Assembly (NCBI GenBank): GCA_951406725.2
Contig: OX597832.1
Span: 57,226,001 to 57,290,000, forward strand
Source of the DNA: Octopus vulgaris
Lineage: Eukaryota
Direction of reading: 5' to 3'
DNA: 64,000 nt
The notes under the pieces were generated by a model. That model saw nothing but the letters and a program-made list of their open reading frames with translations, was not told where the DNA came from and made no database searches. Numbering within the stretch: the stretch's first letter is position 1; each line of letters opens with the position of its first letter. Of the stretch, positions 19,901 to 25,900 are shown piece by piece. The position numbers and the translations under genes are program-made.

Positions 19901-22900
19901 TTGTTGCTTATTTTGATTCTAATCACCTTATTTTGAATTGTATGGATAATACCATACTAAATTCTGGTGCCTCAACTTAAGTTCCATATTCATCTGAATC
20001 TATCTATCTATCTATCTATCTATCTATCTATCTATCTATCTATCTATCTATCTATCTATCTATATATATATATATATATATATATATATATATATAGGCT
20101 AACTGAGAAGATAGTTTTTGTATGTGGCAGATGCTCGGGAGCATTGACCTCCGAAGATCTGCAGAAAACAACTTCCGTCACTTTCCAAGGGGAAAAATTA
20201 GAAGTAGTTGATAGCTTCCGTTATCTAGGTGACCAAGTCAGTAGTGGGGATGGGTGCGCTGAGAGTGTAACTGCTAGAATAAGAATAGCCTGGGCAAAGT
20301 TTAGGGAGCTCTTACCTCTGCTGGTGACTAAAGGCCTCTCGCTCAGAGTAAAGGGCAGACTGTATGATGCATGTGTACGAACTGCCATGCTACATGGCAG
20401 TGAAACATGGGCCGTGACTGCTGAGGACATGCGTAAGCTCATGAGGAATGAAGCGAGTATGCTCCGATGGATGTGTAATGTCAGTGTACTTACTCGACAG
20501 AGCGTTAGTTCCTTGAGAGAAATGTTGTACCTAAGAAGCATCAGTTGTTGTGTGCAAGAGAGACGATTGCTCTGGTATGGTCATGTGGCGAGAATGGATG
20601 AAGATAGGTGTGTGAGAAAGTGCCAATCCCTAGCAGTTGAGGGAACCCGTGGGAGAGGTTGACCCAGGAAAACCTGGGACGAGGTGGTGAAGCACGACCT
20701 TTGAACGTTAGGTCTCACCATGGAAATGACTAGAGACCGAGACCTATGGAAGTATGCTGTGCGTGAGAAGACCCGGCAAGACTAGTGAAGCCATAACCCA
20801 TGGCCCCTACCTGGGACGTAGTCAGTCCACCTGTGTATACCTTCCTGCTTGTGATACTTGTGAAGACCTGTTGAGGCAAGTGAAAGTCAAATCGAATCAA
20901 ATCAAAATAGATGAACATCAATGGAATTTGTATCCTTGTGGTACCAGTGCCGGTGGCACATAAGAAAACCATCCGAACGGGACCGTAGCCAGTACCGCAT
21001 TGACTGGCCTCCGTGCTGTGGGCACGTAACAAACACCATCTGATCGTAGCCGTTCGCCAGCCTCGTCTGGCACCTGTGTCGGTGGCACATAAGAAAACAC
21101 CGAAAACACCATCCGAGTGTGGCCGTCTGCCAGCCTCGTCTGCCAGCCTCGTCTGGCACCTGTGTCGGTGGCACATAAAAAACACCATCCGAGCGTGGCC
21201 GTCTGCCAGCCTCGTCTGGCACCTGTGTCGGTGGCACATAAAAAACACCATCCGAGCGTGACCGTCTGCTAGCCTCGTCTGGCACCTGTGTCGGTGGCAC
21301 ATAAAATCACCCACTACACTCTCGGAGTGGTTGGCGTTAGGAAGGGCATCCAGCTGTAGAAACACTGCCAGATCTGACTGGCCTGGTGCAGCCTTTGGGC
21401 TTGCCAGACCCCAGTTGAACCGTCCAACCCATGCTAGCATGGAAAGCGGACGTTAAACGATGATGATATATATATATATGAATGTATATATATGTATATA
21501 TGTATACACATATGTGCGTGTGTGTGTGTGTATTTGTGTGTCTGTGTTTGTCCCCCACCATCGCATGACACCGATGCTGCTGTGTGTTTATGTCCCCATA
21601 ACTTAGCAGTTTGGTAAAGGTGACCAATAGAATAAGTACTTACAAAAGTACTTACAAAAGAATAAGTCCTGGGGTCAATTTGTTCAGTTAAAGGTGATGC
21701 TCCAGCATGGCCACCGTCAAATGACCGAAACAAATAAAAGAATATACATGTATACATGTGTGTGTATGTGTGTGTGTGTGTGTGAATGTACCTACCTACC
21801 TGCCTTGTTGTAGGCACTCCATTGGTTACGACGACTAGGGTTCCTGTTAATCCGATCAATGGAACAGCCTGCTCGTGAAATTAACGTGCAAGTGGCTGAG
21901 CACTCCACATACATGTGTACCCTTAATGTAGTTCTCAAGGAGATTCAGTGTGACACAGAGTGTGACAAGGCTGGCTCTTTGAAACAGGAAGAAAGAGTAA
22001 GAGAAAGTTGTGGTGAAAGAGTACAGCAGGTTTCACCCCACCCCCCACTGCCGGAGCCTCATGGAGCTTTAGGTGTTTTCATTCAATAAACACTCACAAA
22101 CGCCCGGTCTGGGAATCGAAACCGCAATCCTACAACCGCAAGTCCGCTGGGCCATTGCACCTCTACCTGCCTGCCTGCCTACCACCATACATACAAACAT
22201 GAAAAAGAGAGAAAACTCAACTGAATTGACAGAGTAGAGTTTAGATAAGATTGTTGATAGAACAAGTTCATTAAGTAAATTATAGTCTCACCCCCACCGC
22301 TCGCCGCTGCTGTAGCTAAAACATATCGAGTATTGTCAGGGTGGGTTGGTGGATACAGTAATGATACAAGATAAGCTCCAGAGAAATATATTGACAGTTG
22401 AATCAGGAGGTGAACCTTCAAGTAAATATTAAACCAGGATAAACAGAAGGCTCTTAGATAAGTATGGAAACAGATATATATATATATATATATATATATT
22501 TTTTTCAATATGTGACCGTGTGTGTGTGTGTGTGTGTGTGTGTATTGTTGGTGATTGTTTTTCTCCATCTTCCCTTCTTTGGACTTTTTCTGTTTTCTGA
22601 TGAAGAGCTCCGCTCGAAACATGAAATCCTCTTTCTTTTCTTTCCTTTCCTGAGCGTCCAATAACACTGTACTTGTTCTACATCCTCGCATTGTTATTTT
22701 TTCTCCCTTGTTGGATTGAGTATATATATATATATATATATATATATATATATATATATATATATATATATATATATATATCTATCTATATATATATAAC
22801 TCACTTTGATATTTATCATTGTTTGATTTCACTTTTTCAATATCAGCGACAGTGGACGCTGGAAAAAGGCATAAGTATTTGTGAAGGAATTCTAATTCTC

Positions 22901-25900
22901 GGCGACAACTATGATTGTCACACGCTGACGAGAGGTCAACACCTCGAAACTCGAGTCCGTGTGTATCATAAGTTGAAGACGGGAAGGATGACTTCCCTTT
23001 GCAAATACTGACAGGACACAGATAGTGTGTCTATGGCCAGCTGGAGGAGTGTGTCCTCCTGGGGCTAAAAACTACAGTAGCATCCACCCTTAGGGGTTAG
23101 CCATATTGAAATGGCAAAAATACGTCACGATGTGTTACCGCTACTGTATATAACTCACTTTGATATTTATCATTGTTTGATTTCACTTTTTCAATATCAG
23201 CGACAGTGGACGCTGGAAAAAGGCATAAGTATTTGTGAAGGAATTCTAATTCTCGGCGACAACTATGATTGTCACACGCTGACGAGAGGTCAACACCTCG
23301 AAACTCGAGTCCGTGTGTATCATAAGTTGAAGACGGGAAGGATGACTTCCCTTTGCAAATACTGACAGGACACAGATAGTGTGTCTATGGCCAGCTGGAG
23401 GAGTGTGTCCTCCTGGGGCTAAAAACTACAGTAGCATCCACCCTTAGGGGTTAGCCATATTGAAATGGCAAAAATACGTCACGATATATATATATATATA
23501 TATATATATATATATATATATATATATATATATATATATATATATATATATATATATATATATATATATATATATATATATATATATAAATAAATAAATA
23601 TAAGAGAGTTACCGTTAAGTGGTTAACTCTAGTGCTAAAAATAGCTCCTTATTCTGATATGGCCACCGAAGTTGTTTCCACAAAGAAATAACATTACCTT
23701 CAACGTAAGGAAAGTGAAATACAATGAAAAGATAGATTAATGCTGAACAATTGTTTCTTTATCAATATAATATGCAATTATACTCACATATTTATCTATA
23801 AATCATCAGCAGCGAGTTAACCACTTAACGGTAACTCTCTTATATTTATGTATAAATTTGTATTGTCTCCCTGGTGTTAAACTGATGGTATTATTAAATT
23901 AATATCTAATTTTTCACCCTCATTTATGACTTTATATATATATATATATATATATATATATATATATATATATATATATGTATATATATATATATATATA
24001 TATATATATATATATATATATATATATATATATATATATATATATATATATATATATATATATATATGTGTATGTATGTATATTATATTAAATTAGAGAC
24101 AAAACCACTATTAGGCAAATCATACAATGAAAAATTTAAGCCAATACATAAGATTATTTAATTTATATTATTTAAATATATAACAAAATTATTTAAAAAT
24201 ATAATTAATATATCACTATGATCATTTCATACGATCATTTCAAGTCACAGTCATTCATCAGGTGGTTTAAATATCTAAAATATAATCAATATTTTTAAGA
24301 TATAAATAATATATATAATATAATATAACAATTTTACTTATAATAAACTCTATTATCAAATATGATTATATCGAAATCGACTATAATGTTAAATATTAAT
24401 TTTAATTTATATGTATATATATGTAAATATATATATATTTGTATATATATGCATATATATATATATATATATATATGTATGTATATATATATATGTGTGT
24501 GTGTGTGTGTGTGTGTGTGTGTGTGTTATATATATATATAAGCTGTGTGACAGAGTAACACACCCTAGCGGCTGAGGGAACCTGTGGAGGAGGTAGACCC
24601 AGGAAGACCTGGGATGAAGTGGTGAAGTACGACCTTCGAAATTTAGGCCTCACCAAGGAAACAACTAGTGACCGAGACTTTTGGAAATTTGCTGTGCTTG
24701 AGAAGACCCGGCAAGCCAAATGAGACCATAACCTCGTGGCCTATGCCAGGAGCGTAACCAGCCCACTTATGCGTGCCTTTTCCTTCTTTGGACACTAAAC
24801 TCTGCTTGCGAAGACCTGTTGAGGCAAGTGAAATCAAAATCAAAATCAAATTCAATGACTGGCATCCGTGCTAGCGGGGTGCAAAGAGCACCATACGAGT
24901 GTGATCATTGTTAGAGCGGCTAACCGGCTTCCGTGCCAGTGGCACATAAAAGGGCACCATTCGAGAGTGATCGTTACCAGCATCGCTTTACTGGCACCTG
25001 TACTGGTGACATGTGTAAAAAGATTCAAGCGAGGTCGTTGCCAGTGCCATCTGACTGGCCTCCGTGCCGGTGGCACGTAAAAAGCACCCACTACACTCTC
25101 AGAGTGGTTGGCGTTAGGAAGGGCATCCAGCTGTGGAAACTCTGCCAGATCAAGATTGGAGCCTGGTGCAGCCATCTGGTTCGCCAGCCCTCAGTCAAAA
25201 TCGTCCAACCCATGGAAAGCGGACGTTAAACAATGATGATGATGATGATATATATGTCATATATTATATATAGGGGGAGAATTCACAAAAAAACAACTGA
25301 CGAAGATAGGTGGTATAGACAACAAACAGATGTATTAGTATAATGCTCAGGAAGTGAAAAAAGTCTTTAATGTTTCGAGCCTATGCTCTTCCACAGAAAG
25401 GAACATGGAAAGAAAGTAAAATAATAAAAGAATAAAAGAACAATATATTTCAAATGTAAACCAAATAACTTTATTTCTCTGTTATTTTGCAGATGTGACA
25501 ATTTCACAGGCATTATACTTTTCCACAGTCTGACTGGCGGCACAGGAGCAGGTAAGGTGCTCTACATATATATATATGTGTGTGTGTATGTGTTTGTATG
25601 TGTGTGTGTGCATCTCATTGTCTTGAGACATTGTGTGATAGTTGTAAACAAGATTCACCGTCATACATGCAGTGTCATTTCTTTCCAGATGTGCAAATCT
25701 CTGTTCTCCTGATCTTCGTTAATCTCATCATTTCCTCTACGGAATCTACGTAGTCCTTAGAAGGACATTCAGATTTACCAAGTGAAGATAATTACCGAGT
25801 CTAGTAAATTTCCACTAACTTAAGTTTCACCAACAATCACCGTAGCCAGCTGGTATTGAGAACTGATATAAGAGGCAACATGGTAGCCACCAGGATTACA

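What the first reader, a model, noticed from the sequence alone, without database searches (positions are those of the whole stretch)
22793..23485. Intronic 354-bp tandem dimer with two intact hammerhead ribozymes: candidate octopus retrozyme and circular RNA source
Seen: two apparently identical 354-bp units between (TA)n tracts. Each contains cacacg-CTGACGA-gagg(tcaaca)cctc-GAAAC(tcga)GTC^cgtgtg, a complete type I hammerhead core with perfect stems I and II, a palindromic loop III (actcgagt) and an extended stem I. Known: minimal hammerheads with palindromic stem III occur in Penelope-like elements and in metazoan non-LTR retrozymes (tandem units of a few hundred bp), cleave best as dimers and can give circular RNAs. 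Inference: a transcript through this locus would be cut at 22957 and 23311, releasing an exact 354-nt monomer that could be circularised and mobilised by a Penelope reverse transcriptase. Identity of the two copies suggests a recent insertion. I cannot tell whether this family has already been described in cephalopods.
Basis: partly seen in the sequence, partly recalled or inferred. Interest (0 to 1): 0.9.

Follow-up and report, generated by a model that had tools for sequence, protein, structure and literature searches.

The report
Hammerhead retrozyme with Penelope insertion scars
Two head-to-tail copies of a 354-base non-coding repeat, each with a predicted self-cutting hammerhead RNA, sit in a tubulin-gene intron and belong to a young family of hundreds of copies whose ends carry the marks of Penelope-type retrotransposons, so it is likely a known kind of RNA-circle parasite (a retrozyme), with unusually clear clues to the enzyme that likely copies it.

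Summary
The array is 1.96 units (339 + 354 bp, identical). Each unit has a full-size type I hammerhead (Rfam 31 bits, under the 34-bit cut-off) with a one-pair helix III capped by a palindrome. It lies in the sense strand of an intron of a tubulin-family gene. The genome holds 444 exact ribozyme cores of this young family and 6,083 matches to a motif of the wider clade. Across 14 subfamily copies the stems and the palindrome covary. The natural dimer's lowest-energy fold is a double hammerhead that would release a 354-nt monomer. In 60 loci, 83 of 89 outward 3' ends fall at two fixed internal sites about 45 nt apart. 77 of 89 abut (TA)n, and 25 of 29 inverted insertions have exactly one tailed end. 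This is the Penelope-like-element (PLE) signature, also seen in two young Neptune-type PLE families here. No homologous autonomous partner was found. Cleavage and circles are untested. Verdict: a new family of a known kind (animal non-LTR retrozyme), giving junction-level support for mobilisation by PLEs.

The parts
22721..22798 (.). Left half of the (TA)n target tract; its last 6 bases overlap the element's 5' junction
22793..23131 (+). Unit 1, 5'-truncated (unit positions 16-354)
23132..23485 (+). Unit 2, full 354 bp, 43% G+C, ending at the family's fixed first 3' end
22905..22975 (+). Hammerhead 1 with extended stem I: stem I 22919-24/22958-63, core 22925-31, stem II 22932-35/22942-45, GAAA 22946-49, palindrome 22949-56, predicted cut after 22957
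23259..23329 (+). Hammerhead 2, identical; predicted cut after 23311
22958..23311 (+). Predicted released monomer (354 nt); branched rod-like fold that brings the two ribozymes together
   Evidence: z -6.45
23119..23136 (+). Hairpin whose loop (23126-23129) holds the inferred first reverse-transcription start; the same site in unit 2 is the array's 3' end (23482-23485)
23132..23177 (+). Family 'tail' (unit positions 1-46); the inferred second start lies at 23173-23177. Internal at this locus, terminal at one end of inverted insertions elsewhere
23484..23602 (.). Right half of the (TA)n target tract
16943..25492 (+). Host intron of a divergent tubulin-family gene, between exons 16864-16942 and 25493-25551; the element is in sense orientation

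Best explanation
This is one recent insertion of a non-coding hammerhead repeat family (an animal non-LTR retrozyme) into a (TA)n tract of a tubulin-gene intron, likely made by a Penelope-like retrotransposon's enzyme copying a predicted circular 354-nt RNA about twice round. Steps: (1, shown) units sit head to tail, each with an intact type I core. (2, predicted) In a transcript through two units the body folds back and the two palindromes pair into a shared 8-bp helix III, so both sites would be cut and a monomer released. At this locus the host pre-mRNA would supply that transcript. (3, inferred from coral, mussel and axolotl retrozymes) A host ligase would close the monomer into a circle. 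(4, inferred from junctions) A PLE GIY-YIG endonuclease, most likely of a Neptune-type family, nicks (TA)n, and its reverse transcriptase starts inside the RNA at one of two fixed unpaired sites about 45 nt apart. It runs through the ligated cut site and round the template until it falls off. Priming on both target strands, one from each site, would give the inverted insertions with one tailed end. This locus is the simple case: one start at the first site, 1.96 rounds, 5' truncation.
For: Family: 163 matches at 88-100% identity in the 40 scored of 2,398 candidates; 444 exact cores, control 0; about 1% mean substitution in 86 long units. Ribozyme kept by selection: 111 of 113 units have all 12 core positions intact. 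Across 14 subfamily copies, 13 of 19 pairs change on both sides and 0 of 500 shuffles reach the covariation score; 3 of 4 palindrome pairs covary. The unconstrained lowest-energy fold of the natural dimer 22905-23335 is the double hammerhead (-149.2 kcal/mol, against -132.0 for two single ones); the lone helix III hairpin is unfavourable (+2.2). PLE junctions, in all 60 exact-core loci of contigs C1-C3: 83 of 89 outward 3' ends lie in two clusters (52 at unit 351-354, 31 at 41-48); 77 of 89 abut TA; 29 of 60 loci are inverted, 25 of the 29 have one plain and one tailed end, none has two of a kind. Two non-TA insertions show 8-11-bp target duplications (L154, L170). Frangieh 2024 (PMC11167929) showed in vitro that two internal starts define the tail, a feature unique to PLEs. 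Two young RT+GIY-YIG families with a CX4CX2C linker insert in (TA)n here, and 5 of 5 inverted copies seen have one tail. Single continuous template: only 2 of 98 5' breakpoints lie within 3 nt of the cut site (about 1.9 expected); no indel at the cut in 114 units; subfamily markers are uniform within a locus in 192 of 195 cases; 13 locus-private substitutions are in all units of their locus, 8 across an inversion, while 96 are in one unit only.
Against: No autonomous partner with homologous ends was found. Local alignment to the first PLE family gave only background scores, BLAST to the second hit only scattered relatives of the repeat, and the 17 profile hits in 82 PLE loci are not shared by sibling PLE copies. 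The tail (41-48 nt) is longer than the 30-40 nt in print and than the 36-38 nt of the two PLE families seen. Only three or four PLE lineages were sampled; Naiad, Poseidon and Hydra were not sought. Circles are not shown: no run is on record as RNA, and the laid contigs carry the family's common alleles, not this locus's. In PMC11167929 uncut RNA was the main substrate, and in the 2026 preprint only 1 of 9 frog dimers cleaved. The Rfam score is below the cut-off. Covariation in the body outside the ribozyme is weak (22 of 500 shuffles; several rows end early). Three locus-marker cases are mixed. Folding energies ignore tertiary contacts.
Confidence: 0.7

Rival explanations
1. Same PLE-driven element, but the template is a linear, uncut read-through transcript of an existing array (or a monomer re-used by template jumps). 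The hammerhead is slow or acts later, and circles are not the intermediate.
For: Uncut RNA was the dominant substrate for a lizard PLE in vitro; 8 of 9 frog dimers did not cleave. A uniform source array would also give uniform daughters. No circle evidence here.
Against: New substitutions become array-wide, also across inversions (13 cases), which needs a single unit to be copied repeatedly at some step. No scars at the cut in 114 units argues against jumps there. The ribozyme and its dimer palindrome are under structural selection, and the dimer fold is cleavage-shaped.
Confidence: 0.22
2. Mobilised by a LINE-type (non-PLE) reverse transcriptase, like an ordinary SINE.
For: LINE-type RT fragments occur in the window and nearby loci; LINEs also give 5' truncation and inversion (recalled).
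Against: The 3' ends are two internal sites with no poly(A) or simple-repeat tail of the element's own. The one-tail rule holds in 25 of 25 classifiable inverted loci (3e-8 if ends were independent) and matches the PLEs of this genome.
Confidence: 0.04
3. A solo copy duplicated in place (satellite-type unequal crossover, the model discussed in the 2026 preprint) or an assembly duplication.
For: The two units are identical over 339 bp and share alleles rare elsewhere (1-3 of about 100 units per site).
Against: The 15 junction bases exist once and are the family's natural continuation, so duplicating unit 16-354 cannot produce them. 31 of 60 loci hold two or more cores, with fixed 3' ends and inversions. 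96 of 114 private substitutions are not homogenised.
Confidence: 0.03

Closest known systems
Animal non-LTR retrozymes (Cervera and de la Pena 2020, PMC7229834: coral, mussel, axolotl)
   Same: Tandem units of 150-450 bp (mussel 350-390, axolotl 330/350), one type I hammerhead each, G+C under 50%, self-paired monomer, no coding capacity seen, target duplications over 4 bp, PLEs in the same genome.
   Different: No sequence comparison to those families was possible. Helix III here is one Watson-Crick pair plus a palindromic tetraloop, the axolotl HHR_Amex1/newt dimer type, whereas the invertebrate examples tested cleave as monomers. The parts read describe no tail, inversion or (TA)n targeting. 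Circles are shown there, untested here.
Retrozymes as non-autonomous PLE derivatives (Li, Clavereau and Pollet 2026, bioRxiv 10.64898/2026.07.22.740005)
   Same: Same conclusion on the mobiliser; their operational definition (two or more consecutive units with complete hammerheads) is met.
   Different: Their evidence is co-occurrence and pLTR homology in Xenopus. No mollusc was sampled and the words 'tail', 'mollus', 'octop' do not occur. Here the link rests on junction anatomy, no pLTR homology was found, and arrays appear to arrive ready-made rather than grow in place.
EN+ Penelope-like elements: Neptune, Naiad (Craig 2021, PMC8557442) and Poseidon PAc (Frangieh 2024, PMC11167929)
   Same: Partial tandems, 5' truncation, inverted arm, tail at one end, (TA)n bias, internal start in a stem-loop.
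   Different: No ORF; full-size rather than minimal hammerhead; tail 41-48 nt; no detectable homology to the PLE ends sampled.
Non-autonomous Chlamys PLEs such as MRC1 (PMC8557442)
   Same: Non-coding, head-to-tail multicopy insertions made by PLE enzymes.
   Different: Those share 3' sequence with their autonomous partner; the passage read mentions no ribozyme.

Membership tests
Animal non-LTR retrozyme | Tandem units of 150-450 bp, dimers to multimers, dispersed | tested here: met
   354-bp period; 1-6 cores per locus in 60 loci; 444 cores
Animal non-LTR retrozyme | Complete type I hammerhead in each unit | tested here: met
Animal non-LTR retrozyme | G+C below 50%, non-coding | tested here: met
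   43%; the only frames of 110 aa or more overlapping the element run through the TA tract; PBS and PPT not examined
Animal non-LTR retrozyme | Highly self-paired monomer | tested here: met
   z -6.45; circular fold -116.0 kcal/mol
Animal non-LTR retrozyme | Target duplication over 4 bp where visible | tested here: met
   8-11 bp at L154 and L170, read by eye; not visible in TA tracts, including this locus
Animal non-LTR retrozyme | Self-cleavage | not testable with these tools
   predicted only
Animal non-LTR retrozyme | Accumulates as circular RNA | tested here: inconclusive
   contigs only, RNA status guessed; a 383-nt contig equals one 353-nt unit plus a 30-nt overlap, which a tandem transcript or DNA would also give
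Rfam Hammerhead_1 (RF00163) | Gathering score 34 bits | tested here: not met
   31 bits, full model, E 1.6e-5
Type I hammerhead, dimer-acting | Conserved core, stems I and II, self-complementary helix III | tested here: met
Type I hammerhead, dimer-acting | Loop 1-loop 2 tertiary contacts | not tested
   stem I internal loop and 6-nt loop 2 are present; contacts not modelled
PLE-mobilised element | Two internal 3' ends delimiting a tail present at one end | tested here: met
   83 of 89 ends; 25 of 29 inverted loci; tail longer than the published 30-40 nt
PLE-mobilised element | 5' truncation, inverted arm, microsatellite bias | tested here: met
   29 of 60 inverted; 77 of 89 ends at TA
PLE-mobilised element | Sequence shared with the pLTR of an autonomous PLE | tested here: not met
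   none in 82 PLE loci, an incomplete sample of PLE lineages
Autonomous PLE | RT and GIY-YIG ORF | tested here: not met
   no such ORF in the unit; present only in separate families

The most novel reading that the evidence does not exclude
This family gives direct, junction-level evidence that an animal retrozyme RNA circle is copied round and round by a Penelope-like reverse transcriptase. The enzyme starts at two internal sites and appears to recognise RNA shape rather than shared sequence. The dimer-type hammerhead releases monomers even from a host intron, so host pre-mRNAs can feed the parasite.
Probability: 0.5. Interest if true: 0.7.

Novelty: new member of a known kind. Interest (0 to 1): 0.52.

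Why it matters
Which enzyme moves animal retrozymes, and whether circles are the template, is open. A 2020 review says their repeats show no motif that reveals the partner (PMC7761336), and a 2026 preprint argues for PLEs from co-occurrence and homology only. This young family, with about 270 loci by extrapolation, shows the PLE-specific two-start tail and gives base-level predictions of where reverse transcription begins. Two young PLE families with open reading frames sit in the same genome, so a defined in vitro test is possible. It also offers a natural double hammerhead, and a case of a predicted self-cutting cassette in the sense strand of a host intron.

Tried and rejected
Whole-window Rfam gathering scan: no hit. 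Genome-wide RF00163 search: 6 hits from 73 scored of about 263,000 candidates, none of this family and none beside a PLE frame; uninformative. Autonomous partner: two cores 3.25 kb apart (L071) and two motifs 3.7 kb apart (L175) were checked as possible pLTR pairs; neither encloses a PLE frame. A match 1.7 kb upstream of a PLE frame (L069/L091) proved to be an older sister retrozyme family, not a pLTR. A Pfam accession recalled as a PLE model is not in the library. Expression: no RNA holder listed; 4 of 24 listed runs were laid, all contigs with guessed RNA status; no joints or ends could be read; neither for nor against. Covariation of the body fold: weak and confounded. An RNA polymerase III promoter was considered by eye only; no convincing A and B boxes, so the promoter is unknown. 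Earlier findings by place and by sequence: none. Print searches that found no description of this family or of retrozymes in cephalopods.
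Full report
OBSERVATION. Tandem Repeats Finder gives period 354 and 100% matches at 22793-23485 between (TA)n tracts. The exact identity run is 339 bp, so the array is a unit truncated by 15 nt followed by a full unit. 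Rfam Hammerhead_1 matches both copies over the full model at 31 bits, E 1.6e-5, below the 34-bit cut-off. The sequence shows the core, a G-C pair opening a 4-bp stem II with a 6-nt loop, a 6-bp stem I extended beyond an internal loop, and a helix III of one Watson-Crick pair capped by a palindrome. Predicted cuts are after 22957 and 23311. The predicted monomer folds far better than its shuffles (z -6.45).

CONTEXT. Of 137 filtered frames in the window, two match Pfam Tubulin. Four + strand exons with AG/GT ends join without a stop. The element is in intron 16943-25492, on the same strand as the gene, so the pre-mRNA would contain both ribozymes. The tubulin subtype and the host species were not established.

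FAMILY. A DNA search gave 163 matches in 40 scored of 2,398 candidates. The 33-nt core occurs exactly 444 times, control 0. The 99 cores listed on contigs C1-C3 fall in 60 loci, all fetched, which extrapolates to about 270 loci. Two of the 60 (L141, L142) look like mirror duplicates and may not be independent. The usual unit is 353 bp; 86 long units differ by about 1% from the yardstick letters. The window's two units share alleles found in only 1-3 of about 100 other units per site. A body motif occurs 6,083 times, control 0, in several older subfamilies 73-86% alike and in a sister family with a different ribozyme sequence that does not favour TA.

RIBOZYME. In 14 copies picked from different subfamilies, 87.6% of cells pair, 13 of 19 pairs change on both sides, and 0 of 500 shuffles reach the covariation score. 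Slid controls are much lower, and 3 of 4 palindrome pairs covary. The structure was drawn from the window's copy and the sequences are related, which favours it. 111 of 113 young units keep all 12 core positions. A single helix III hairpin is unfavourable, while the palindrome duplex is -10.7 kcal/mol. The unconstrained best fold of the natural dimer is the double hammerhead, 17 kcal/mol below two single ones. This matches the axolotl HHR_Amex1 type, which cleaves poorly alone and well as a dimer (PMC7229834). Against activity: only 1 of 9 frog dimers cleaved in the 2026 preprint. Covariation in the body is weak.

INSERTION ANATOMY. Of 89 outward 3' ends in the 60 loci, 52 lie at unit positions 351-354, 31 at 41-48 and 6 elsewhere; 77 abut TA. 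29 loci are inverted: 25 have one plain and one tailed end, 4 have one irregular end, none has two of a kind. Position 352 is T in 23 of 50 terminal units and in 0 of 107 internal ones, so the first start varies by a base. The main end positions (351-352, 43, 46) are unpaired in the predicted circle, the first in a hairpin loop. Older subfamilies end in the same register. Craig 2021 describes partial tandems, inverted arms, a 30-40-bp tail at one end and (TA)n bias for PLEs. Frangieh 2024 showed that the tail lies between two internal starts of the PLE enzyme and is unique to PLEs.

TEMPLATE. Copying runs through the cut site: 2 of 98 5' breakpoints lie at 178-184, as chance predicts, and 114 units show no indel there. 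Five subfamily markers are uniform within a locus in 192 of 195 cases. Of 114 locus-private substitutions, 13 are in every unit of the locus (8 across an inversion), 5 in some and 96 in one. This fits one monomer copied repeatedly at insertion, then independent decay. A circle is the simplest such template; an uncut transcript of an already uniform array is not excluded.

PARTNER. A GIY-YIG search scored 150 of 6,136 candidates. It led to a young 4.7-kb PLE with a 781-aa RT+GIY-YIG frame (97-99% between most copies) and a second with a 775-aa frame and many identical copies. Both have a CX4CX2C linker, which Craig 2021 gives for Neptune and Nematis. Both insert in (TA)n with 36-38-nt tails, and 5 of 5 inverted copies seen have one tail. 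Neither shares sequence with the unit, and their tails are about 10 nt shorter. The partner is therefore inferred at class level only. Naiads, which PMC8557442 reports from Octopus and which also target (TA)n, were not sought.

EXPRESSION. Twenty of 24 listed runs, from 10 studies, hold at least half of the words, but none is on record as RNA. In the four laid, contigs carry the common family alleles; one 383-nt contig is a 353-nt unit plus a 30-nt overlap. Contigs cannot tell a circle from a tandem transcript or DNA, so this is not counted as evidence.

COMPARISON AND NOVELTY. It works like, and meets every sequence-testable criterion of, an animal non-LTR retrozyme; cleavage and circles are untested. 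It is not an autonomous PLE. The PLE link was proposed in PMC7229834 and PMC7761336 and argued in bioRxiv 10.64898/2026.07.22.740005. What I did not find in print is this family, a cephalopod retrozyme, or the tail and inversion signature in any retrozyme. The giant squid genome paper lists 235 Hammerhead_1 hits without analysis. Papers seen: PMC7229834 outline, passages and parts 2-4 of 6, supplement unreadable; PMC11167929 parts 1-2 of 4; the 2026 preprint parts 1-3 of 5 and passages, supplements closed; PMC8557442, PMC7761336, PMC6962438 and PMC10886601 passages only. Unseen supplements or repeat databases may already list the family. An unchecked earlier scan note on another genome describes a ribozyme-free tandem unit with similar ends; it is a lead, not support.

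VERDICT. A real, young retrozyme insertion; new member of a known kind. Interest 0.52, raised above a routine repeat by the testable junction evidence on how such elements move.

Noticed in passing
window 22545-22720 (+); similar at 43669-43819: Separate, older repeat directly upstream with a decayed minimal hammerhead-like motif near 22597-22626, resembling a PLE pseudo-LTR remnant; 73-83% matches in 8 held loci and deep contig cover.
   Followed up: partly
window 23590-23853: 40-bp inverted repeats (97.5%) enclosing about 185 bp just downstream of the right TA tract; MITE-like or an inverted PLE-type fragment; no match in held loci.
   Followed up: partly
window 13998-28698 (+), possibly from about 7850: Divergent tubulin-family gene (delta/zeta-like by recalled motifs, not tested); further exons not mapped.
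   Followed up: partly
L111-L140 (e.g. L118, L135): Older sister retrozyme family (about 350 bp, 2,235 candidates) with a different hammerhead sequence, its own palindrome, tails and inversions, but no TA preference; it may have used a different PLE.
   Followed up: partly
L051-L068 and L205-L216: Two apparently active Neptune-type PLE families, each with an upstream frame of 479-557 aa before the RT-EN frame; the first has a degenerate minimal hammerhead-like motif in its pseudo-LTR.
   Followed up: partly
L205:2650-3050: Repeat with Helitron-like ends (recalled pattern) that contains an inverted 60-bp piece of an older retrozyme subfamily.
   Followed up: no
L218, L219, L222: Another dispersed hammerhead family with a 108-nt match and very long stem II, above the Rfam cut-off.
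   Followed up: no
window 19961-20662 (+), 44188-44532 (+), 54511-54915 (-): Fragments that look like C-terminal parts of LINE-type reverse transcriptase frames.
   Followed up: no
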